A DNA stretch of 40,000 nucleotides, taken from the NCBI GenBank assembly GCA_023268615.1, contig JALQUC010000026.1, positions 1 to 40,000 on the forward strand, in the 5' to 3' direction. How positions within the stretch are numbered: position 1 is the stretch's first letter; each line of letters starts with the position of its first letter. The stretch is from Candidatus Altimarinota bacterium (GTDB taxonomy: Bacteria; Patescibacteriota; Gracilibacteria; BD1-5; JAGOOR01). Shown here in pieces: positions 413-33,046 of the stretch. Under the pieces are notes generated by a model. It was not told where the DNA came from. It worked only from the letters and a program-made list of their open reading frames with translations, and did not search any database. Position numbers and translations under genes: made by a program.

Positions 413-946
413 CTAAAGAAATGTAAAATTGCTCACATCCTCCCCTCTCTGTATCATCTCACGAATCCGCGTCCCTGAGATATCTATCTCGTAGGAATCA
501 ATCCACTCGGTCTGGATACCATGGCGTGCACAAATATCCCTCACCCATTCGTTGCCGGTAATAAGAGTAAGTGATGTGATTCCCTGTCATTGCGAACCTG
601 AGCTTGTCGAAGGCGAAGCAATCCATTCCCTGGATCGCGTCGTCATTTCATTTCTCGCGATGACGGGAGAAGTAAGTGCTTTCAAATTCTCGCACCAGAT
701 ATCATCGTCTGGGACATCATCCAGTCAGACGATATCCATCCGCTCTTGGAGCTCGAGAGGGATACTCGCGCGGATGATTTCTTCGCGTTCCTGGAGTGTC
801 CAGGGATTCTCATCAGTACCAGATTTTTCTGCAGAACCGATGACGAGCATGAGTCGTTTGTATTCTGTGAGAATTTTTTCCACGATGGAATAATGCCCAA
901 TATGAAATGGCTGGAATCGTCACAAAAAAATCGCTGTTTTTATCAT
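413..946 (-). CDS. nicotinamide-nucleotide adenylyltransferase-like (archaeal NadM-type cytidylyltransferase family)
   Basis: Manual translation: MIKTAIFLGRFQPFHIGHYSIVEKIL...LVIGSAEKS...NPWTLQEREEII...ISGTRIREMI. The (T/H)xGH motif is GRFQPFHIGH. Two in-frame TGA (725-727, 587-589). TAG stop at 413-415. Carries a 35-codon insertion (see 574-670). Confidence 0.75.
574..670. mobile_element. 97-bp MITE-like palindromic element inserted in frame, flanked by 8-bp direct repeat AGTAAGTG (566-573 and 671-678)
   Basis: Terminal inverted repeats TCCCTGTCATTGCGA / TCGCGATGACGGGAGA and a central palindrome GCAATCCA-ttccc-TGGATCGC. Identical 8-mers flank it. Element + duplication = 105 bp = 35 codons. 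Confidence 0.65.
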
Positions 947-5499: not shown

Positions 5500-5534
5500 T
5501 CGCCTCACCGTTACGGAGAAGTAAATCCTTTGTG

Positions 5535-5559
5535 TTTTCTGTTACTTTTTACTTTTTCT
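5535..5559 (+). repeat. pyrimidine-rich motif TTTTCTGTTACTTTTTACTTTTTCT (copy 1)
   Basis: Near-identical to 38126-38150. Lies 20-45 nt upstream of tRNA-Cys. Confidence 0.8.
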
Positions 5560-7594
5560 ATTCGCTTTCAGCGAATCTGGCGCCTTGGTAGAACGGTCAT
5601 ACAGGAGCCTGCAAAGCTCTGGAAGCCGGTTCGACTCCGGCAGGTGCCTCCAATACTGCATTTTCTCCAAAAAGTACCTGTCTCACAGGTCATAAAAGCT
5701 CTATTTCAAGGGCTTTTTTCTTTTTAATTTTGAGTTCGAAAGTCGTCAGCATGATCAATTCATAAATATCTTCTCTCAAAATTCTATTTTCACCATTTGT
5801 AAGCAATTTTTCAGAGAGTTCGAAAGTTTTTCTGAGGATATTGGGTATTCTCTCTAGAAATATCTGAGAATCTTTTTGATTCATCAAGTTCTCAATTTTG
5901 TTATTTATTTCTGCAATTCTCTTTTTTCCTTCTTCTATTTGTTCTTTTATAACATCTTCCATTCCTTCAATACTTCCTGATTTAAGAAAATTGGTCATCA
6001 TTAGTTTACTCTGTTCTTCTATTTTGTGCTTCTGAGATTCCAAGTCTTTTAGTAAAGCTTCCTGCCCTTTTCGAACATCTTGAGTGCTTGTCATAAAAAT
6101 TTTTGTAATGTTCTCCTGCAGAAGACCAATCATGCTGACAAAATTTCTTCAAATCCATCACACCAATGTGTACCAATCGCTAATTTGTTTCTCTAAATCA
6201 TCATCATTACTGCACTTGGCACCTAAAAATAATACTCATTTTTCTTTTACGGGATCTAATCATTCAAAATCTAAAGTAGATCATTCAAAGAGTCTTTCTA
6301 GAATTCATGAAATATCGTCAGGATTTTTTATATCTATTTTTAATTCATTTTTCTCAAAAGGTAGTCTAAACGCCACTTCAATTCCTGAAGATGTAGCATG
6401 ATTAAAAAGAAGTTTTTCAATTGCTAATATAAATTTAGAGCCTTTCAACCCCCGATCTGCAAAAAGCTCATTTACTTTAATTCAGATAATTTTTTTAACT
6501 ATTGCACCTCTTAAGAAACTCATAAATTCTTCAATAAGCCATTTCTCAGAGACATGAATCCCCTCTACTGTATTCTTATATTGGGATGTTCATTTTTGTG
6601 TATATCATGACAGTCTTCGACCATTCTCGGTCCGTAGAACACTTCTTAAGTGATATTTTTCCTGTTGGAGACCGTAGCTACCTTTTTTCTTACCCTTATT
6701 ATTCTGTACTCACTGCCAAAGAGCCATAGGAATTGGTGTTTCACACTCAAAAAATTGGAGATTTGAAAAAGATATTCATGTATTTTTTTCTGTATATTCA
6801 CCAATATAAACCTTGTTACTAAAAAGCCGATCATTCAATTCTCGTTCTCATAGTTTTATACCCCCAACCTCCTGTAAGTACTTTGATATTTCTTTGTGTG
6901 TGATCCCCACCATCTTCATCTCAAAAGCTTTAATGATAAAAGGCATTTTATTGTTTTGTTTTAGGATTCTTCTACCTTCATGAATAATATGCCCAAGACC
7001 TTTTGGTGCTGCATACGGAAATTCTCAATTTTCAAGCTTTAAAAGAATTCATCCGATTGATTTTCTCCTAGTATCTAAACTATCATAGTATCCGGCAGAA
7101 AATTTCTTATGTACTTCTTCCTTGTCTGTCTCTTTTGTAATCTCTTCTGTCCCCTCCATGTTAATATAAATGATCTTTTCGATAGTTTGTCTTTGCTTAT
7201 TGTCTCAATAAAGCATATTCATTATGGTCTGTGTATCTGTTGGATTCCTTGAGAGACGGGAAAGATCTCTTGTAAGCAAAATACAGGGGCTTTTTTCTTT
7301 ATTTATTTCTTCTATCATCTTTGTCCATTCTTTTCGTTTTTTATTCTCAAATCCACTAAAAGTCTCACCAAAGACCCTGACTTTCTCTTTTTCAAATTTT
7401 AAGCGTTTTACTATACTGCCTATTCCATCTTCTTGTTGTATAAGGGATTCGCGTTGTTCCTCTTTGTTAGTACTTCTTCTGAGATAAGCAAAAATAGAGG
7501 TATCCTTTGATAAGCTCTTATTCTGTTGGCCGCCATGGGAAGGAGGTCCTTGATATACAATAACTTTATTAAATATACTTTGTGACGATTGCAT
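5558..7594 (-). CDS. large serine recombinase (integrase/transposase type)
   Basis: One continuous frame (checked codon by codon) from ATG 7594. It has the catalytic region IFAYLRRSTNKEEQ, LLTRDLSRLSRN, a recombinase domain (GYYDSLDTRRKSIGGILLKLENGEFPYAAPKGLG) and a Lys/Glu-rich coiled-coil C-terminus. About 20 in-frame TGA. After TGA 5690-5692 the frame runs antisense through tRNA-Cys to TAG 5558-5560. Confidence 0.85.
5579..5652 (+). tRNA. tRNA-Cys (anticodon GCA)
   Basis: Cloverleaf by hand: acceptor GGCGCCT/AGGTGCC, anticodon stem GGAGC/GCTCT with loop CTGCAAA, T-arm GCCGG-TTCGACT-CCGGC, discriminator T, encoded CCA. Close to the E. coli tRNA-Cys layout. Confidence 0.9.
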
Positions 7595-7595
7595 A

Positions 7596-7673
7596 GTGGC
7601 GATTATTATTTAGTGGTAAATTATTCTCAACTCTTCCCCCGCTTCCAATCGCCACGAAAGAAAGGGGGAGAAG
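7596..7673 (-). promoter_or_regulatory. 5' leader hairpin abutting the recombinase start codon
   Basis: In mRNA sense: CTTCTCCCCC...GTGGCGATT-(42 nt)-AATCGCCAC-T-ATG. The 9-bp stem ends 1 nt before the ATG. An upstream C-tract can alternatively pair with the loop segment GGGGGAAGAG. Confidence 0.4.
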
Positions 7674-7770
7674 AATAGAGGATAAAATATCAACTTCTTC
7701 CATTCAACAATTCCAAAGTAATAAATTAGCTTTTATATTCAAGTTTTATTTTGTACAAGCGGTTTTTGGT

Positions 7771-7798
7771 GTTTGTGTTTTCTTAAGAAAACACAAAC
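7771..7798. repeat. perfect 28-bp palindrome GTTTGTGTTTTC-TTAA-GAAAACACAAAC
   Basis: Self-complementary over all 28 nt. Sits between the nuclease gene end (7970) and the recombinase start (7594). Confidence 0.9.
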
Positions 7799-7969
7799 TA
7801 TCCAAAACTATATAAAAGTAGTCTTTAGATGTATTGTGTACCAGTCCTGAAGATAAAATTAAAACACTCACTAATCCAATTCTAAAAAGGGAATAGTGGT
7901 CTTTAGAAAATCTTTTATATTTTAGTCTCTGCCCCACTTTCTGTTCAAAAATTTCTATTTGTCCAGCAT

Positions 7970-9190
7970 TTAATTACAAATTGATTCACAAGGTATGCCA
8001 TCTGAATCAGAATCGAGCCGAGTAAGACCGCAAGAGTTAAGATAGTATTTTGCCTCTTCGCAGGTTATCATTTGTGTGCAATAAGTCTTGGCTCCGCAAG
8101 TGTAGGAAGATGAGGGAGGAGGTGTAGTAGGAGGCGTATAGATTGGGGTTGTTATAGGTGTGCTGATTTTTACTTCATCTTTGGTCCCTTTTTTCCTGTC
8201 GCCTGCACATGTCGAAGCAGACCAAAGTCCGAGTTGAGCGTTTTTAGCCATCAGCTCTGCCTCTTTATTCTCTTTCTGATAGGTGTACGCGGTGTTATAG
8301 GTGTATTCGAAGGCGTAACCATCCAAAATCATTTTCGTATTGATATTGGTCCCGTTATAGAAGATATAGGCGAGTGTACGGCCATATTTGTCTGTTTCTC
8401 CTTGGGTTGAATCCTTCTCAATAGTGAGTTCCTTTGCATCTTTTAAGAGCATTTTTAAGTGTTCTGATGCTTCTTTGCCGAAACATTCTACATAACCATA
8501 ACGGGATGTTGTAGATTCAGGTGCATCTAAGCCGATCATTCGTATTTTGAGGTTGCCATAATTGACTGTGTCACCATCAACAACAGTAATGAGATTAGTA
8601 CCGCTCAACGAAACAATTTGTCGAGCAAAACCAAACACTTCTGCACGAGTGGCAAAACGATTTGGAAAGAATTTGTAGTAAGTATCAGAAATATACTGAA
8701 CTCACGGTATTTCAATATCAGAATTACGAATTTTTACAAAAAGGTCCTTTTGCCACTCAGTCACATCTTTATCAGCTGGAACAAGAGCATCATATTCCTT
8801 TGTAGGTGAGAGGTTGGATGCTTTATAGAGTATAGAGAACGCTTCTGCTCGTGTGATAGAGTCTTGAGGTCGTGCTTTTGTGTTGCTTCTAGAGATAAGT
8901 TCATTATCACTTGCTAATTCTATGGCACGGCAAACCCAATCTTGTTTTACAGTATCAGAGAAGTATTTTTTGCAGTTATAGCCCTCAGGAAGACTTACGC
9001 CTTTGATTTTAAGGGCTATTCCTATGACTTCTGCCCGTGTAATCCTATCATCTAATCTATACCCTGTTTCTGATGACTGTAATGTTATGATGCCTTTTTC
9101 TCCAAGAAAGACTGCATTTGATAAATCTGAACTAGTGTAGGCAATACCTAAAAAGGGAATCAACAGGGTCAAAAAGAACACTTTTTTCAT
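7970..9190 (-). CDS. secreted SLH-repeat / staphylococcal-nuclease (SNase) / Excalibur-domain nuclease
   Basis: Track ORFs 8702..9190 and 7970..8638 share a frame across TGA 8702-8704. Signal peptide MKKVFFLTLLIPFLGIAYT. Three SLH-like repeats (ITRAEVIGIA, ITRAEAFSIL, ATRAEVFGFA). SNase core VVDGDTV..IRMIGLDAPE..GRTLAYI. Pro/Thr linker, then a C-terminal DSDSDGIPCE motif. Confidence 0.8.
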
Positions 9191-9222
9191 AATAGAAAAA
9201 TAATGATAAACCTTTTGCTTTT

Positions 9223-9251
9223 AAAAAAAAGCACGCTCGGAAAGTGCGTGC
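9223..9251 (-). terminator. rho-independent terminator (minus strand)
   Basis: Minus-strand read: GCACGC-actttccga-GCGTGC followed by T8. Confidence 0.7.
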
Positions 9252-9260
9252 CAAAATATA

Positions 9261-9427
9261 TTTAGTGTTTTGCTGGCGAAACAAAAAGGGAGGATCAATC
9301 CCCTTCGATTCGCCAGAATCTTACTCATTTAGTGTCATAGACAATAAAAGAGGCAGGGATATAATCCCCCCTTTCGATTGTCTATAAATAACACTAAAAA
9401 AGTAAGTAAAATAAATAAGATTCTGGC
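9261..9427 (-). ncRNA. candidate structured RNA: two related hairpin units nested in longer inverted repeats
   Basis: Unit 1: CTGGCGAA(9273-9280)/TTCGCCAG(9309-9316). Unit 2: ATAGACAAT(9337-9345)/ATTGTCTAT(9377-9385). The stems differ but the loops are similar (..AAAAG.GG.AGGGAT..AATCCCC..TTCGA). Outer pairs are TTTAGTGT/ACACTAAA and GCCAGAATCTTA/TAAGATTCTGGC. Strand inferred from the adjacent minus-strand terminator. Confidence 0.4.
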
Positions 9428-9500
9428 TACAATAGCTTATTCAAAAAACTACTTTTACAAGGAAGTCGAATAATCTAATGAATTGTCTTGGACAGAGTAA

Positions 9501-9968
9501 CTACTTCATAACCTTCAATAAAGAGGAAAATGGTGTGAAATTCTTAGGAATACTCTGCAAATCTGGGAAAAAGCGATGATATGTTGCGGGGTTGTTTAGT
9601 CTCGTTTTTCATAGTTTTTTAGCCAACTGGCTCTTTATTGAGACATGTTTAGGTTTCTCTCCGAGAAATTTAAGAAAGTCGGATTCAAAATTCGGAGAAT
9701 TAGAAATGACTATGATTCATTTCGCTTTGGCCAATTTCAAAGCAGCAGTGGTTTCAGGTCTATCTGAATCAATCCAAACATAAATTTCATCATATCATTC
9801 ACCATTTACTATGGCTTTTCGAACAATTTCCAATGGAGATCAGCCATATCAGTTTTTAATATAAATCTTCTTACCACATCATCTTCAACAAAGTGACCTA
9901 AAATGCTTAGCACATTCGCACTCATCATCTCATTCACAATAAAGAAGTGTGGTTGTGTTTTTCCCCAT
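9501..9968 (-). CDS. RloB-like TOPRIM-type protein
   Basis: MGKNTTTLLYCEGDDECECAKHF...YDEIYVWIDSDRPETTAALKLAKAKGIIVISNSPNFESDFLKFLG matches the RloB pattern (CEGxxxE, YDEvw.v.D.D, SNPcFE). Eight in-frame TGA. Starts 6 nt after the ATPase stop. TAG stop at 9501-9503. Confidence 0.8.
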
Positions 9969-9973
9969 AAATA

Positions 9974-11152
9974 CTAATCAAAAACAGGTTTAGCACCATA
10001 TACCCCTGCCATATATTTTGCATAGTAATTATCATCAGATCTGACAGTAACCCCCTCGATCTGATCTAATCTATCTAGTGACGAAACTCAATTTTTATCT
10101 TTTTCAACAAAGAAGATTTGATATTTATTCAATCGGTTAAGTACTCTTGGATTTTGTGTAGTAAAAATAAGTTGAGCATTATCAGGATTATTTTTTTTAC
10201 TTTGATAGTAGTCCATGATTTTATCAACAAATTCAGGATGAAAATTTGAATCCAACTCATCAAAGACCAGAACACCTCATTTTTTGAGTGTTTCAGCCAT
10301 CATATAGGCATAATCAATCAGCTTAAGACTTCCATCTGAATAATAAGGTACAATGTGTGTTTTCCCATCAATATGTACCTCTCCCTTTGCCTCCATTTGT
10401 TTCTCGCCATTAGGACTAATAGATTCTTCAACTTTCAAATGTAAACCAGTTGGATCAAATTGATGCAAAATATCATTCAAGAAATCTAAATCTTCCTTAT
10501 TTTGAACATATCTAGTTAATGCAGTTACTCTATTCATATCAAAACTCGACTGATTTAGGCCACCCATTGGCAAGATCCGGGTATAAACAGTCGCCCAAAA
10601 ATCAATAATATCTAGTGCATTCACATCCATCAACCTACTTTTCACAAACAAAATACTCGCATTTGATCGTAAAAATGGTAATTCGCTCGAGGTCAAATCG
10701 GATAGACTAAAGAGTTTTTTCCAGGTTACTCTTTCTTCAGTTTTTGATCGAATAAAAATCGCTTCTGAGACTGCAAATCATTTTTTCAGCTTTAATTCGA
10801 TTTTATAGACAGACTTTTTTGTCTCAAAAACACATTCAAAATGCTGATCTGCATTATCTGCAAATGTGTATGGTATACATCTGTACTTTATTGAACTATC
10901 AGATACTGGGGTTTCTGGTGCTAATCTCCATGCATCAACTATCCAATACTGTAAAAATGCAATGCCCCGTAGTAAATTTGATTTCCCTGAGGCATTTGGG
11001 CCTATTATTGTTGCAACTTTGGAAACCTTTACATTAGGAAGCTTCGAATTAGCGAGTGTGTCATCGCTATTATCCTTTCTGGCCCAAGTAAGATCAAAGT
11101 TATTATCCTTTTTGAAAGAGGCTATGTTGGAAAATTTGAATGAGTGTATCAT
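9974..11152 (-). CDS. AAA_21/ABC-type ATPase (abortive-infection-type)
   Basis: Walker A IIGPNASGKSNLL, signature-like YYSDGSLKL, Walker B GVLVFDELDSNFHPEF, then LIFTTQNP and a C-terminal YGAKP. Track fragments 10778..11152 and 10277..10696 join through TGA. TAG stop at 9974-9976. Confidence 0.85.
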
Positions 11153-11532
11153 GTTTATATTTATAGAAGTGCTGTCATCTTATTCATTTTTCTCTATGTG
11201 TCAATAATAAAGCAATATATTATTACTTTTGTAGATTTTCTGTGAAAATACGACATGTAGGTGTATATTTAATATACTCCATTCGAAAAATTGTTTTGCA
11301 AAAAAAATTCTTCATATATAATAACTGTACTACTTCCTAACAAAGCTCCTATGTGCTTCTGATGAAAATAAAAAACTCTAGGTCAAACAAATCGTTTAGA
11401 TCTGCTATTCCAAGAGTTTTCGAGTAACAAAAACCGGACAGGCTTTGTTACCAACAAATATATTAGTTTTAGGAAGAATAGCAAATTATTATACAACACT
11501 CTTCGTGTTGTCTACTTCCTAACCCTTCTCGT

Positions 11533-11637
11533 ATGGCATACCGCTATCGTGATTCTGGGTCTGGTCAATTCATCAGCAAACCATCTGCTGATCGTAGGAA
11601 CCCAGATACCGTTGAACGCGAACGAATAAAGAAATAA
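11533..11637 (+). CDS. small conserved-looking peptide (34 aa)
   Basis: MAYRYRDSGSGQFISKPSADRRNPDTVERERIKK. TAA stop, followed about 20 nt later by a strong terminator. The pattern YR-x3-SG-x-F-x-S...P-x-T-V recalls a widespread family of small uncharacterised proteins (from memory, not searched). Confidence 0.5.
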   Translation: MAYRYRDSGSGQFISKPSADRRNPDTVERERIKK

Positions 11638-11659
11638 TCTCTTCTGAAATTTCTTTTTC

Positions 11660-11690
11660 ACCGACAGTACTCTTGCTGTCGGTTTTTATT
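11660..11690 (+). terminator. rho-independent terminator
   Basis: ACCGACAG-tactcttg-CTGTCGGT followed by TTTTTATTT. Confidence 0.75.
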
Positions 11691-11957
11691 TACTTTCTGC
11701 TCAACTCGAAACCTCTCTTGGAGATATACCTAACCCTGTTGTGCCTATAGTGAAAGGGAAACATCGGGGACACGGCTGAATATGATGTTAACCAAAAACA
11801 TTTTTCTGCCTCTCTTTGAAAATCCTCTTCTGCCTTGAAATAAATACTTTTTCACTATTCTCTACATAAGTTCGAAGATTGGTACCCCTTAAGACCTCCA
11901 TTTGACAATTATTATAAAACACTATATTGCTAGTGTTTTATTTTAAAAATTAGATTT

Positions 11958-12683
11958 ATGAATTTTCCTGAAGATATAAGCCTAAAATCAAAATCTATTG
12001 TTCGAAAAGTTGACGGAAAACCTGTAACAATAGAAGTAAAAATACATCCAAGTACTCACAGAAAAGTGGTTGTAATAAATTATCCTGGGGTTTATGGAGA
12101 TATAGATGGCTTTAACAGTAAATACACCAAAATTGCTGGTCTAGTTGCTGAAAAGATAGGAACAACTCTTCGTATCTCGTGAGCAGAAGAAACACTCTGA
12201 GAAGAATTTGAGAGCGGTGTATCTAAAAAACTTGAAGCTGTGATTAAGGATGCTCTGCAAAATTCACAAGAACTAGCTGAATGCGAACCCAATGAACTAG
12301 AAATATATTTGATGGGGTTTTCAACCTGAGCATCTTGAGTTGCTGCTGTTTGTGGTAAATACCCCCAAATTAAAAAAATACTTCTTATTGCACCATCTTG
12401 AGATGCTTGAGAAGAAGCATGTGAAAGTTCTTTGGGCTCTTTTACTTGAGAAGTGCATGTTTTAGTTGGCGAAAATGATGAAGTAGTTGGATGAAAAGCA
12501 GCTCATATTTTTGCTCAAATGGCTAAGTCAGCAAAAAGAGTGAAAGAACTGACAATTCCCAATTGTGACCATCAATTCAGATGAAGCAAGAATGGTCAAC
12601 TGATGAGCGCTGCACCAATATGGGCTTTTTTGAAGAATGGCGAAGGAGAATTAGATCCCAATGATGGTATTATAATCTACTAG
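11958..12683 (+). CDS. alpha/beta-fold hydrolase
   Basis: Frame open 11958-12683 through nine TGA. Nucleophile elbow G-F-S-T-(TGA)-A with TGA 12327-12329 at the second Gly of GxSxG. Later ..NCDHQF (His). TAG stop. Confidence 0.7.
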
Positions 12684-27625: not shown

Positions 27626-27982
27626 ATGACTTTTTATTTTGAAAGTCTGGAAGTATGGAAAAAAGCGTTTTGAATCACAGAACGAATTTATCCGCTTCTC
27701 AAATTATTTCCAGAAGATGAAAAATTTGCTCTTACATCTCAAATACGCAGATCCGCACTTTCAGTTGTTTCTAATATCGCTGAAGGTAACGGCCGATGAA
27801 ATGACTCTGAATATGCGTATTTTCTGAGGATTGCAAAATGATCTTGTGCAGAATTAGCAACACAAATTTTATTATCAGAAAAATTTGGTTATATTAGTGA
27901 CAAAGAATCAAGAGAAATACTGGATGTGTTAGAAGAAATCAATAAAATGCTCTTCTCGATGATTCAGAATAATAAAAAATAA
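27626..27982 (+). CDS. four-helix-bundle protein (23S rRNA intervening-sequence protein family)
   Basis: [75 protein letters not shown]. This is the typical family signature. Three TGA. TAA stop. Confidence 0.8.
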
Positions 27983-29376: not shown

Positions 29377-30675
29377 ATGAAACTCTCCCTCTACCAATTC
29401 AAACATTATTTGGATAAGTCTCTCGAAATATCCGAGGACCTTCAAGTCGTCGTCGGTAATAACGGTTCTGGTAAATCCACTCTCTGTGAAGCACTGAGTA
29501 TTCTCGTGAATGCGAGTAATCCCCATCACACGAGTTGGGAAGAGAAAAACTCCTTTGCAAAGGAGCTGTTCGAGCTTGTCGAGGACTGAGGATTTTCTGA
29601 TACAAAATCCCCCTCTTTGAATTCTGCTCCTTCATCCCCCTTTACAAAGGGGGTTTGGGCTCTACGACTCGAACTGAGTGAAGTACTCTTTCAGTCGATT
29701 TTTGACGGTCAGAATTGTTCACCAAAATGGCATATGGATGAGTCATCGTGTTCAAAGCCAAAGTACGAAGACAAGATGCCGTATCGGGCTTTTTGGATAC
29801 AGAGTGATCATCTGCGTGTCATCTCAGGTGAACCAAGTGAACGGAGAAATTTCCTCGATGATATGCTCACATTTGCCAGTCCTGGATATGAGAAAATTCT
29901 ACGAAATTATCGTACAGCACTCACCTCTCGCAATCGTGTGATTCAGTCAATTCTGGACAAGGAAGCACGAAAGGAAGACCTCTCTTCCTGGAATACGCTT
30001 CTCGCAGAATACGCTGTGCAGGTCATCCGAGAACGAAGAACATTCTTCACATGGTTCAATTCTCCGTCATCCTCGGGCGACTGAGTGCAAGCGAAGCGTC
30101 GCGAAGAAGACCCGGGGATCCAGGTGAATAATTTACCATGAAATGGTTCTTATAATGTATCAGAGATGGATTCCACCTCGCGTCATTCGACAAGCTCATG
30201 ACTTGGCTGGAATGACGGGCAACAACTTTGAACTTTCCTACATCTCCCAGGTCCGGTCAGAATAGAGCTCTCGGAGCGACATACACTGGAAGAAGTAACC
30301 AAAGAAGCATTTCTGAAACTCCTCGCCGACTACACCGAACGAGACCTCGTGGTGGGTCGTACGACCGTAGGCCCTCATCTCGATGAGATTAGTTTTTCTG
30401 TGGAGATGTATAATGTCTGGCAATCAACCAAATATATCCTCTCTCGAGGAGAAAATAAAATTCTCCTCCTCGCCTTTATCCGACTCCTGGGGAAATATGT
30501 GGAGGAAAATTCCTGAAAAAAACCCTTCTTCCTGCTCGATGATGTCCTCTCCGAACTTGATGAAGATCACACACATATCCTCTGCCAGCTCTTCGCGGAT
30601 ACGACGACAATCATGACCACTCAGCCCAATCATACAGCGGGCCTACCCACTGATATTACCATGACGAAGTTGTAA
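29377..30675 (+). CDS. recF: DNA replication and repair protein RecF
   Basis: Walker A GNNGSGKSTL, SGEPSERRNFLDDML, GPHLDEISF, signature SRGENKILLLAF, Walker B FFLLDDVLSELD. One frame from 29377 to TAA 30673-30675 through seven TGA. 432 aa, longer than I expect for a RecF because of two repeat-derived segments. Confidence 0.85.
29568..29674. repeat. palindromic segment inside recF (CCCCCTTT-aca-AAGGGGG core, GTTCGAG/CTCGAAC ends)
   Basis: Outer inverted repeat GTTCGAG(29568-74)/CTCGAAC(29668-74), inner GTCG/CGAC, core hairpin CCCCCTTTACAAAGGGGG. Encodes ..GGFSDTKSPSLNSAPSSPFTKGVWAL.. just after the Walker A region. Confidence 0.4.
30064..30219. mobile_element. 156-bp composite palindromic element in frame inside recF
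   Basis: CCGTCATCC...GGGGATCCA, an AT-rich centre, then TGGATTCC..CGTCATTC..GGAATGACGG. Same GTCAT...ATCCA / TGGAT...ATGAC building blocks as 574-670 and 32431-32496. 52 codons, three TGA, no TAA/TAG. Confidence 0.55.
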
Positions 30676-31802: not shown

Positions 31803-31845
31803 TTAAAAATAATTGTATCACAAGAAAAATCTCTACACTGATTTC

Positions 31846-32418
31846 ATGCACTCCCTCATTATCACCGCTCATCCGAGCTCTCACGGATTCACTCATGCTA
31901 TAGCACAGAGGTATAGAGAAACAAAGAAAAAAAACGGTCATACTGTCGAAATTCTTGATCTCTACAGGACAGATCTCAAAATGGGTTATCTCTCCTTTGA
32001 AGAAAAATCAGATATGAAAAAACCTGATGCAACGCGTGATGCAATTCAGGCAAAAATCACAGCAGCAGATGAGCTCGTGTTTGTCTTCCCTATCTGGCAT
32101 GTGAATATGCCCGCTATTTTGAAAAATTTCTTTGATACTATTTTTACTGGTGGATTTGCGTACCAATATACCAAGTGAACCTTTATTTTCCCCCTGAAGC
32201 TCCTCACAGGCAAAACAGCACGAGTTTTCTGTACCTGTGATGCATTTAGTTTTCTCTATTGGTTTTTAGGCAATCCTCTCTTTATGATACTGCGTTTTGG
32301 TGTACTGGGCTGGTGTGGAATCAAACTCAAGAGCTATACCAATTTTGGTCGGATGAGAAAACAAACACCAGAAACCTGTGAAAAAATGCTCCAGAAAGTC
32401 GCACGGATGGCTGGATAA
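31846..32418 (+). CDS. flavodoxin-like NAD(P)H dehydrogenase (quinone) / FMN reductase family
   Basis: MHSLIITAHPSSHGFTHAIA..., ADELVFVFPIWHVNMPAILKNFFD (Flavodoxin_2 signature). One TGA. TAA stop at 32416-32418. Confidence 0.7.
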
Positions 32419-32430
32419 TTTTTTATTGCA

Positions 32431-32496
32431 TGGATTGCTTCGTGCCTCGCAATGACGGAAGCCTGTCATTCCGAGAAGGTGCGACGAAGGAATCCA
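32431..32496. repeat. 66-bp intergenic palindromic element of the same family as 574-670
   Basis: TGGATTGCTTCGTGCCTCGCAATGACGG-aagc-CTGTCATTCCGAGAAGGTGCGACGAAGGAATCCA. Imperfect hairpin with ~30-nt arms, between the reductase stop and marR. Confidence 0.8.
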
Positions 32497-32575
32497 AGAA
32501 ATGAACACCCAAAAAAAGAGTAACAACCTCTTGCAAATAGTATTTTATGTCTAAACTATTCAGTAATAAAGTATT

Positions 32576-33046
32576 ATGATTTTTAATAAAAAAGCTAGGA
32601 TAACAGAGACACATGTGATGGATTTTTTTAAGTCCCTCATGGAAGCAAGTCATGCTGTTCATGTGTTTGTTGAAAAGGTATTTTTTGCACAGAGTGATAT
32701 CACGATGCTCCAGTTTGGTATCATCAAACAGCTCATCGCCAAGTGAGGAACCGTGGAGACAATGACAGATCTCTGGTGTGATCAGCACACCACGCGTGGG
32801 AATCTCTCAGGTATGATAGATCGCATGATCGATGCTGGTCTCGTGTCGAGAAAAGAAGATACAGCCGATCGAAGAAAAAAACATATCACACTGACCAAGC
32901 TTGGTCAGAAAAAACACGATGAAATAGAGGCTCTCATGCGAAAACATATCCCTGATTTTATCGACCATATCAAGGATATACCTCTCGTAGAGATGACAAA
33001 TTCTCTCCAGATGATTCGTGATATCCATATCAACGCTCTCAAATAA
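32576..33046 (+). CDS. MarR-family transcriptional regulator
   Basis: Winged-helix region ..ITMLQFGIIKQLIAK-G-GTVETMTDLWCDQHTTRGNLSGMIDRMIDAGLVSRKEDTADRRKKHITLTKLG. Alternative start at 32618. Immediately upstream of the efflux genes. Confidence 0.75.

What the first reader, a model, noticed from the sequence alone, without database searches (positions are those of the whole stretch)
566..678. MITE-like palindromic element with clean 8-bp target-site duplication inserted in frame into the nadM-like gene
A 97-bp element (574-670) has inverted termini TCCCTGTCATTGCGA / TCGCGATGACGGGAGA and a central palindrome. It is bracketed by identical AGTAAGTG octamers (566-573, 671-678). Element plus duplication is 105 bp, exactly 35 codons. 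It adds ..SP-VIARNEMTTRSREWIASPSTSSGSQGQGIT-SL.. between residues that are adjacent in the archaeal-type NMNAT sequence as I recall it (..SLTPPFDIVYSGNP.. versus ..ALT[insert]LTLITGNEW..). The inserted frame has one TGA and no TAA/TAG, so the gene stays open only because UGA is sense. This recalls the Rickettsia palindromic elements that insert into protein-coding genes. I am not aware of it being described for table-25 lineages.
Basis: partly seen in the sequence, partly recalled or inferred. Interest (0 to 1): 0.78.

Follow-up and report, generated by a model that had tools for sequence, protein, structure and literature searches.

The report
Palindromic repeat inserted in NMNAT gene
An 87-base palindromic repeat, of a kind scattered through many bacterial genomes, sits in frame inside a surface loop of the NAD-synthesis enzyme NMNAT of a bacterium that reads UGA as glycine, and related copies decorate other housekeeping genes of this lineage, much as in Rickettsia.

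Summary
The sequence facts hold. AGTAAGTG lies at 566-573 and 671-678, the inverted termini are there, the insert is in frame, and it has one TGA and no TAA/TAG. About 100 orthologues lack the insert.

The boundaries and the "clean TSD" do not hold. The real element is 581-668. It is a tail-to-tail doublet of two CGTC/TGTC-tagged REP units (583-627 +, 629-667 -; E 5e-6 and 8e-8). It replaces one Asn codon, a net gain of 28 codons. Both Leu-Thr codon pairs that make up the "TSD" already exist in uninserted close orthologues. In 121 family copies, flanking repeats are no commoner than in shuffled controls.

The units belong to a repeat family found in more than 120 loci across many phyla. It resembles the CGTC-tagged REP/RPE superfamily (Di Nocera 2013).

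The window holds two more doublets: one in frame in recF (30062-30222) and one intergenic (32429-32498). A related unit lies inside PGI, Mfd, RsmB/F, a glycosyltransferase and riboflavin kinase on other UGA-sense contigs.

Verdict: a Rickettsia-RPE-like in-frame REP insertion, not a TSD-making MITE. It is a new member of a known kind, in a lineage where I found no published description.

The parts
413..946 (-). nadM-like NMNAT gene (177 aa in table 25; three TGA=Gly codons), host of the insert
   Evidence: Translation. PF01467 and orthologues. PDB NMNAT hits (1f9a, 4yp7). All invariant family residues are kept.
581..668 (.). REP doublet (REPIN-like long hairpin): two inverted CGTC-type units, heads outward and tails meeting. 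It encodes Pro94-Gly122.
   Evidence: The terminal stem TCCC..GGGA and the central stem appear in the folds. Both halves match the family HMM and covariance model. AlphaFold puts these residues in a low-confidence excursion.
583..627 (+). Unit L: TGTC tag (585-588), 5-bp stem ATTGC/GCAAT, 27-nt loop, CCA tail
   Evidence: Covariance model R1: 29.4 bits, E 4.8e-6. nhmmer: E 8.8e-7. The loop shares TGAGCTTGTCGAA with recF unit B.
629..667 (-). Unit R: CGTC tag (GACG on the + strand, 662-665), 5-bp stem ATCGC/GCGAT (a compensated T-A to C-G change), CCAGG tail
   Evidence: Covariance model R1: 36 bits, E 7.7e-8. In the family, CGC in the 5' arm goes with GCG in the 3' arm in 9 of 15 units, against 2 of about 250 units with TGC.
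587..589 (-). The single in-frame TGA (codon 120, read as Gly), formed by the conserved head motif ATGACA
   Evidence: In the standard code this frame of the element would be closed.
566..573 (.). Left copy of AGTAAGTG (gene strand CACTTACT: the last two bases of the Ser125 codon plus the Leu126 and Thr127 codons). Ancestral loop sequence, not shown to be a TSD.
671..678 (.). Right copy of AGTAAGTG (gene strand: the last two bases of the Ala90 codon plus the Leu91 and Thr92 codons)
30062..30222 (+). Second intragenic REP doublet, in recF (29377-30675). Unit A is about 30063-30124 (9-bp stem ATCCTCGGG/CCCGGGGAT). Unit B is about 30165-30219 (stem ATTCCA/TGGAAT). A 41-nt spacer separates them. 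The 53 extra residues include three TGA codons.
   Evidence: The insertion is seen against solved RecF structures and 350-aa orthologues. It is nearly invariant against L142.
32429..32498 (.). Intergenic REP doublet, heads inward: units 32429-32459 (-) and 32462-32498 (+, stem ATTCC/GGAAT). It starts 11 nt after the stop of the flavodoxin-like gene 31813-32418.
   Evidence: Covariance model R1: 39.7 and 30.5 bits, E 7.9e-9 and 2.4e-6. Sequence. Pfam match of the upstream gene.

Best explanation
The insert is an in-frame copy of a non-autonomous palindromic repeat. It is a doublet of two inverted REP units, each built as a CGTC (or TGTC) tag, a short stem beginning A-T, a loop, the returning stem and a CCA tail. 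Together the two units can fold into one long hairpin.

It landed in the helix-to-strand connection of the Rossmann-like NMNAT fold, replacing one Asn codon of a loop that tolerates insertions of many kinds in this gene family.

It persists as a passenger for three reasons. Its net length is a multiple of three. It carries no TAA/TAG in any frame. Its one TGA, made by the conserved ATGAC head, is read as glycine in this UGA=Gly lineage.

Shown:
- family membership;
- insertion relative to orthologues;
- other copies, both intragenic and intergenic;
- no regular TSD;
- loop position and low model confidence.

Inferred:
- the copy arrived by the same unknown trans-acting mechanism that spreads CGTC-type REPs, probably acting on the hairpin and without a staggered cut;
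- the protein keeps its activity with a disordered surface excursion.
For: - Family membership: the two halves score E 4.8e-6 and 7.7e-8 against a covariance model built from 60 units of other bacteria, searched with filters off over 40 kb. nhmmer agrees.
- The family is real and widespread: a two-terminus pattern expected about 0.7 times by chance (my estimate) hit more than 120 loci, all alignable as one hairpin family. It also hit 11 IMG/VR contigs.
- Architecture matches the CGTC-tagged REP superfamily described in PMC3733652: tag with a TGTC variant, stems starting AT, CCA tail, inverted dimers, intragenic dimers encoding 20-30 aa, Rickettsia RPE-4/-6 included, no transposase known.
- The insert is absent from about 100 orthologues. 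The closest ones carry the uninterrupted 13-residue loop.
- Other copies: the recF and intergenic doublets in the window. recF unit B is 100% identical over 51 nt to an intergenic copy in another genome, L007.
- 18 metagenome contigs carry the unit. Copies lie deep inside PGI, Mfd, RsmB/F, glycosyltransferase and riboflavin-kinase ORFs that are long only in table 25.
- Structure: core pLDDT is about 90; residues 101-120 average about 49 and 108-117 are below 50; the insert lies between helix 81-92 and strand 123-130.
Against: - No mobilising enzyme was identified. The window ORFs tested show no Y1 or other transposase next to a copy.
- The nadM copy is diverged from the family consensus, and no second genome carries it, so the time and source of insertion are unknown.
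- The 8-nt flanking repeat is nominally unlikely by chance (1.6%), so a one-off duplication at insertion cannot be excluded.
- Units here have 5-bp stems and 12-27-nt loops. The four described CGTC families have 8-9-bp stems and 4-5-nt loops.
- Expression and activity of the decorated enzyme are untested.
Confidence: 0.8

Rival explanations
1. It is a classical MITE: a deletion derivative of a DDE-transposase IS whose terminal inverted repeats were cut and pasted with a staggered 8-bp cut, leaving the AGTAAGTG target-site duplication.
For: A perfect 8-nt direct repeat lies close to both ends. The chance frequency is 1.6%. One CPR copy (L046) has an 11-nt flanking repeat.
Against: - In 121 family copies, the longest flanking repeats are distributed as in shuffled flank pairs.
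- The recF and intergenic copies have none.
- The repeat lies 7-8 nt from one end of the hairpin and 2 nt from the other, so it does not abut the ends.
- Both Leu-Thr pairs pre-exist in uninserted orthologues.
- The termini are REP heads with unit-level stems, and no parent IS is known.
Confidence: 0.07
2. It is a local, non-mobile loop expansion made by slippage or duplication in a hypervariable loop, and only resembles a repeat family by chance.
For: The same loop carries heptanucleotide tandem repeats and other unrelated inserts in orthologues.
Against: Both halves match an independently built family model at E 1e-6 to 1e-8. Further copies exist elsewhere in the window and in other genomes.
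Confidence: 0.03
3. The element is not a mere passenger. Its nucleotide sequence is under selection, for example as an mRNA or DNA hairpin bound by a protein, or it is kept uniform by gene conversion or homing, and it modulates expression or stability of the host gene.
For: The recF doublet differs at 1 of 161 nt between two genomes whose flanking recF differs at 54 of 581 nt. Third codon positions differ at 0 of 54 inside and 44 of 193 outside (Fisher 2.4e-5). A 51-nt unit is identical at a different locus in a third genome. Stems show compensating changes.
Against: There is no comparison for the nadM copy itself, which is diverged and has mismatched arms. The identity tract in recF runs a little beyond the insert (10 and 26 nt), which fits a recent recombination tract as well as selection. 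Covariation in the sample is limited by how the units were collected.
Confidence: 0.1

Closest known systems
CGTC-tagged REPs (Di Nocera, De Gregorio & Rocco 2013, BMC Genomics 14:522; PMC3733652)
   Same: An unpaired CGTC tag (TGTC variant noted there too), a stem beginning A-T/T-A, a CCA tail and inverted dimers that can fold into one large hairpin. Mostly intergenic just 3' of genes, but also intragenic, where dimers encode 20-30 residues. Often found in DNA repair genes (here recF and Mfd). No associated transposase.
   Different: The four described families have 8-9-bp stems and 4-5-nt loops. The nadM units have 5-bp stems and 12-27-nt, often purine-rich, loops (GAG...CGAAG). The paper lists five host phyla, none of them CPR or a UGA=Gly lineage. 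The figure with the consensus sequences could not be read, so identity with a described family was not tested.
Rickettsia palindromic elements (RPE; Ogata et al. 2000, own knowledge). PMC3733652 equates the intragenic R. conorii CGTC repeats (its CGTC-1 and CGTC-4 families) with RPE-4 and RPE-6.
   Same: Palindromic repeats inserted in frame into housekeeping genes, tolerated in surface regions and adding 20-50 residues. The same families also occur between genes.
   Different: The sequences differ: there are no VIPAKAGI or SFPRKRES-type peptides. The host is a free-standing CPR-like lineage with a reassigned stop codon, not an alphaproteobacterial endosymbiont.
REPINs (REP doublets forming hairpins; Bertels & Rainey 2011, own knowledge)
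   Same: The unit of the insert is a doublet of two inverted REPs with a short spacer, folding into a long imperfect hairpin.
   Different: REPINs are GTAG-type and are linked to RAYT (Y1) transposases. Here the tag is CGTC and no RAYT was seen.
Bacterial MITEs such as Correia or Nezha elements (own knowledge)
   Same: Small size, terminal inverted symmetry, multiple copies, occasional in-frame insertion.
   Different: MITEs have transposase-type TIRs and fixed-length TSDs. This family shows no regular TSD.

Membership tests
CGTC-tagged REP superfamily | Unpaired terminal CGTC (variants TGTC, CCTC) at one end of each unit | tested here: met
   Unit R has CGTC (GACG at 662-665 on the + strand) and unit L has TGTC (585-588). 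The tag is conserved in 60 aligned family units.
CGTC-tagged REP superfamily | Stem of 8-9 bp starting with A-T and T-A pairs | tested here: inconclusive
   Stems start AT, but are only 5 bp in the nadM units (ATTGC/GCAAT, ATCGC/GCGAT). recF unit A has a 9-bp stem ATCCTCGGG/CCCGGGGAT.
CGTC-tagged REP superfamily | Loop of 4-5 nt | tested here: not met
   Loops are 12-33 nt, often with an inner hairpin. The paper notes that unusual members may have escaped it.
CGTC-tagged REP superfamily | Three-nt tail, consensus CCA | tested here: met
   GCAAT-CCA and GCGAT-CCAGG in the nadM units. The consensus of the 60 aligned units ends ...GCAATCCA.
CGTC-tagged REP superfamily | Many dispersed copies per genome, frequent inverted dimers | tested here: inconclusive
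   Three doublets lie in 40 kb, and 8 contigs of one metagenome sample carry the related unit. The rest of this genome could not be read.
Rickettsia RPE families | Sequence match to an RPE consensus | not tested
   No RPE sequences were available. The encoded peptides differ from those listed for the R. conorii CGTC-1 and CGTC-4 repeats.
MITE | Fixed-length target-site duplication abutting the ends | tested here: not met
   No excess of flanking repeats in 121 copies. None at the recF or intergenic copies. The nadM repeat does not abut the hairpin and pre-exists in orthologues.
MITE | Termini shared with an autonomous IS | not testable with these tools
   No IS database was at hand, and no transposase lies next to any copy examined.
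REPIN/RAYT system | Association with a RAYT (Y1 transposase) gene flanked by the repeats | tested here: inconclusive
   None was found among the ten window ORFs scanned. The rest of the genome was not seen.
Archaeal-type NMNAT (host gene) | PF01467 fold with the GRFQPFH nucleotidyl-transferase motif and the C-terminal ISGT(R/K)IR motif | tested here: met

The most novel reading that the evidence does not exclude
In UGA=Gly (table 25) bacteria, CGTC-type REP doublets may colonise essential genes unusually freely, because the reassignment leaves all six frames of the element open. On this reading the embedded copies are not neutral: their nucleotide sequence is held constant well beyond coding constraint (recF: 0 of 54 synonymous-site differences against 44 of 193 in the flanks). 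That would point to a sequence-specific partner protein, or a homing or gene-conversion mechanism, acting inside coding regions. With genomes of about 1 Mb, these lineages could then be the place to identify the long-missing enzyme that moves CGTC REPs and RPEs.
Probability: 0.2. Interest if true: 0.75.

Novelty: new member of a known kind. Interest (0 to 1): 0.55.

Why it matters
Intragenic palindromic repeats are a textbook oddity of Rickettsia, and nobody knows how CGTC-type elements move.

This work shows the same phenomenon in a Gracilibacteria-like, UGA=Gly lineage. At least seven housekeeping genes are affected across related contigs: nadM, recF, PGI, Mfd, RsmB/F, a glycosyltransferase and riboflavin kinase.

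That extends the phenomenon to a very different group with tiny genomes. It also links it to a genetic-code change that removes the element's only stop codon.

There are practical consequences. Such inserts inflate and confuse protein annotation in CPR genomes, and the repeat translations generate spurious small ORFs.

The near-invariance of the recF copy hints at constraint or ongoing homogenisation, which could be tested.

Tried and rejected
- blastn of the element against the window found only short seeds. These missed the other copies until a family profile was built.
- Rfam: nothing for the region at E up to 10, and nothing for canonical family copies at gathering thresholds.
- A six-frame peptide query of the element against 5.8 billion proteins returned only the protein itself. 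No near-identical in-frame copy is on record.
- Gapless inverted-repeat search over the window did not list the element, because its arms differ by an indel.
- Literature searches by DNA string found only unrelated primers. No paper links Gracilibacteria to such repeats.
- Among the 24 low-GC family loci from the genome and viral-contig scans, none lay deep inside an ORF. Mid-gene copies are therefore not the rule outside these lineages.
- P0006, a candidate nadM of the closest relative, turned out to come from another sample. The empty site in the nearest genome was not obtained.
- Considered and rejected: an intron, intein or excised intervening sequence (no supporting feature), and an assembly artefact (an ENA contig is identical over the 1141 bases shared with the window).

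Full report
**What is in the sequence**

The finding lies in a minus-strand gene (946..413). In table 25 it translates to a 177-residue NMNAT. It has three in-frame TGA codons, one of which is the glycine of the GRFQPFH motif.

The protein carries PF01467 and matches solved archaeal-type NMNATs (1f9a, E 2.5e-13).

AGTAAGTG is present at 566-573 and 671-678. The imperfect inverted termini and a central ATCCA/TGGAT palindrome are there as well. The segment folds into one long imperfect hairpin, but its energy is only mildly unusual (z -1.8 as RNA, -2.2 as DNA). Inside the element no TAA or TAG occurs in any of the six frames, and the reading frame used contains one TGA.

**Is it an insertion?**

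Yes. Of about 100 orthologues for which the loop could be extracted, 75 have an 11-residue loop (K-x-L-L-P-S-E-V-x-L-F). Seven, including several of the closest relatives, have a 13-residue loop (K-x-L-T-x-N-I-x-x-x-T-L-F). Only this genome has the 41-residue version. P0001 and contig L001 are the same sequence from other records.

Codon-level comparison with L003, L004 and L005 shows that the window reads K-A-L-T-S-[29 residues]-I-T-S-L-T-L-I. The insert therefore replaces the Asn codon of the 13-residue form, for a net gain of 28 codons.

The two AGTAAGTG copies are the Leu-Thr codon pairs that flank the site. Uninserted relatives already have both, for example RLTSNIETLTLF and RLTFNIQPLTLF.

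**What the insert is**

A pattern made from both termini (TCCC-GTCATYGCGA ... TCGCRATGAC) should occur less than once by chance in 596 Gb, by my estimate. The hosts include:
- Alphaproteobacteria, which dominate (Bradyrhizobium, Rhodopseudomonas, Bosea, Sphingomonadales);
- Beta-, Gamma- and Deltaproteobacteria;
- Bacteroidota, Chloroflexi, Elusimicrobia, Margulisiibacteriota and Clostridia;
- the CPR groups Saccharibacteria and Moraniibacteriota.

All hits are one family of 75-100-nt hairpins, with the consensus CCGTCATTGCGAG(GAG)CGAAGCG(AC)GAAGCAATCCAG - variable spacer - CTGGATTGCTTCG...CTCGCAATGACGG. The same pattern also hit 11 viral contigs.

Each half is a unit: a CGTC tag, a stem ATTGC, a loop, the returning stem GCAAT, and a CCA tail. 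The third stem pair covaries. CGC in the 5' arm goes with GCG in the 3' arm in 9 of 15 units, against 2 of about 250 units with TGC.

A profile HMM and a covariance model built only from other bacteria find four significant units in the window:

| Position | Strand | E-value | Locus |
|---|---|---|---|
| 583-627 | + | 4.8e-6 | nadM insert |
| 629-667 | - | 7.7e-8 | nadM insert |
| 32429-32459 | - | 7.9e-9 | intergenic |
| 32462-32498 | + | 2.4e-6 | intergenic |

The nadM insert is therefore a tail-to-tail doublet of two such units, one of them with the compensated stem ATCGC/GCGAT. Its TGA codon is made by the conserved head (ATGACA).

**What is known**

Rfam has no family for it. The architecture fits the CGTC-tagged REP superfamily of Di Nocera et al. 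2013 (PMC3733652) on these points:
- an unpaired CGTC tag, with TGTC variants;
- stems starting A-T;
- a CCA tail;
- inverted dimers that can fold as one large hairpin;
- positions just 3' of genes;
- intragenic dimers that add 20-30 residues, often in replication and repair genes.

The paper equates the intragenic R. conorii CGTC repeats with RPE-4 and RPE-6 and reports no dedicated transposase. The described families have 8-9-bp stems and 4-5-nt loops. The units here have 5-bp stems and long loops, so I file the insert as superfamily-like and not as one of the four families.

**Target-site duplication**

I compared the 30-nt flanks of 121 family copies. The distribution of the longest direct repeat matches that of shuffled flank pairs: 3 copies reach 8 nt or more, against 1.5 expected.

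In the window only the nadM copy has a flanking repeat. The recF and intergenic copies have none. The chance frequency of an 8-nt repeat in such flanks is 1.6%.

The Leu-Thr pairs also pre-exist in uninserted orthologues. The TSD reading is therefore not supported, although a one-off duplication cannot be excluded.

**More copies, and the wider pattern**

A fifth and sixth unit, weaker against the model (E 0.06 and 1.4), form a doublet at 30062-30222 inside recF. It is in frame, has three TGA codons and adds 53 residues. These residues are missing from solved RecF structures and from the 350-residue orthologues.

Unit B of the recF doublet shares TGAGCTTGTCGAA with nadM unit L. It is also 100% identical over 51 nt to an intergenic copy in another genome (L007), with a variant in L004.

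A pattern from the ends of this unit found 18 metagenome contigs, eight of them from one sample. The inner hairpins differ by compensating changes. Several copies lie deep inside ORFs that are long only when TGA is read through. Pfam identifies these as PGI, Mfd/TRCF, RsmB/F, a glycosyltransferase and riboflavin kinase.

By contrast, none of the 24 low-GC copies of the pan-bacterial family lay deep inside a gene. In-frame REP decoration thus appears to be a feature of these UGA=Gly lineages.

**Position in the protein**

AlphaFold, run with 56 homologues, gives a confident Rossmann-like core (pLDDT about 90). The insert is an excursion between helix 81-92 and strand 123-130. Residues 101-120 average a pLDDT of about 49, and 108-117 are below 50.

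In Rossmann-like nucleotidyltransferases the substrates bind at the C-terminal ends of the strands. A helix-to-strand connection therefore lies on the opposite face. This last step is an inference from the known fold.

All invariant residues of the family are kept.

The same loop is a hot spot in orthologues. It carries a different palindromic insert in L002 and L009, other inserts in P0036, P0046, P0091 and P0101, and heptanucleotide tandem repeats in L005 and L010. I read this as tolerance of the loop, not as targeting, but that was not tested.

**An unexplained point**

Between the window and the related genome L142, the recF doublet differs at 1 of 161 nt, while the surrounding recF differs at 54 of 581 nt. 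At third codon positions the counts are 0 of 54 inside and 44 of 193 outside (Fisher 2.4e-5).

This means one of three things: constraint on the nucleotide sequence, recent homogenisation, or a recent recombination tract. The mismatch-free stretch runs 10 and 26 nt beyond the doublet. No such comparison is possible for nadM.

**Verdict**

The insert is an RPE-like, in-frame doublet of CGTC-type REP units from a very widespread family. It is most likely a tolerated passenger, kept open by the UGA=Gly code. It is not a MITE with a clean TSD.

It is a new member of a known kind, in a lineage for which I found no published description.

Noticed in passing
window 29377-30675 (recF), insert 30062-30222; L142 10806-10966: recF carries its own in-frame REP doublet (53 residues, three TGA codons), shared with one related genome. 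It is almost invariant there: 1 of 161 nt differ, against 54 of 581 in the flanks, and no third-position changes.
   Followed up: yes
window about 29560-29656 (recF residues about 62-93); hairpin CCCCCTTTACAAAGGGGG at 29636-29653: A second, unrelated insert in recF is built around a C5/G5 hairpin. Similar C/G-run hairpins form the nadM-loop inserts of L002 and L009 and one recF insert of P0122 (IIPPDKG...GG). They also occur as terminator-like intergenic hairpins in L004 and L007 (CCCCCCTGAATTCAGGGGGG). This looks like a second family of palindromes that enters genes.
   Followed up: partly
window 32429-32498: A head-to-head REP doublet starts 11 nt after the stop of a flavodoxin-like gene. 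An unsupported 201-codon minus-strand ORF (32423-33028) reads through it and ends in the typical repeat-derived peptide ...APSRNDRLPSLRGTKQSMQ.
   Followed up: partly
L010 2001-2489, L005 168-647, L004 2943-3443; L155; protein P0091: There are in-frame heptanucleotide tandem repeats in coding regions of these lineages: (GATTACA)x4 and (CATTKAA)x5 in the NMNAT loop, and a 14-nt tandem copy in L004. Repeated IQNTKYK-type peptides occur in a glycosyltransferase (L155) and in the NMNAT loop of P0091. An (ATACAAA)n repeat would encode them; I inferred this by back-translation and did not read the DNA.
   Followed up: no
window about 5500-12000: A low-GC stretch (0.33-0.34 against about 0.43) encodes a large serine recombinase (5558-7594), an RloB-like protein (below Pfam's cut-off) with an AAA_21 ATPase (9501-11152), and a secreted SNase/Excalibur nuclease (7970-9190). 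It is possibly an integrated element with a defence module.
   Followed up: partly
window 27626-27982: Gene for a 23S rRNA intervening-sequence protein / bAvd-like four-helix protein, syntenic in L142.
   Followed up: no
L131-L141 (IMG/VR contigs): The pan-bacterial hairpin family also occurs on 11 contigs classed as viral, a possible route of spread between phyla.
   Followed up: no
L046 2022-2115 (Moraniibacteriota): One CPR copy of the family is flanked by an 11-nt direct repeat (TTATTACTTTA), 10 and 6 nt from its ends. It is the only other TSD-like case among the 121 copies.
   Followed up: no
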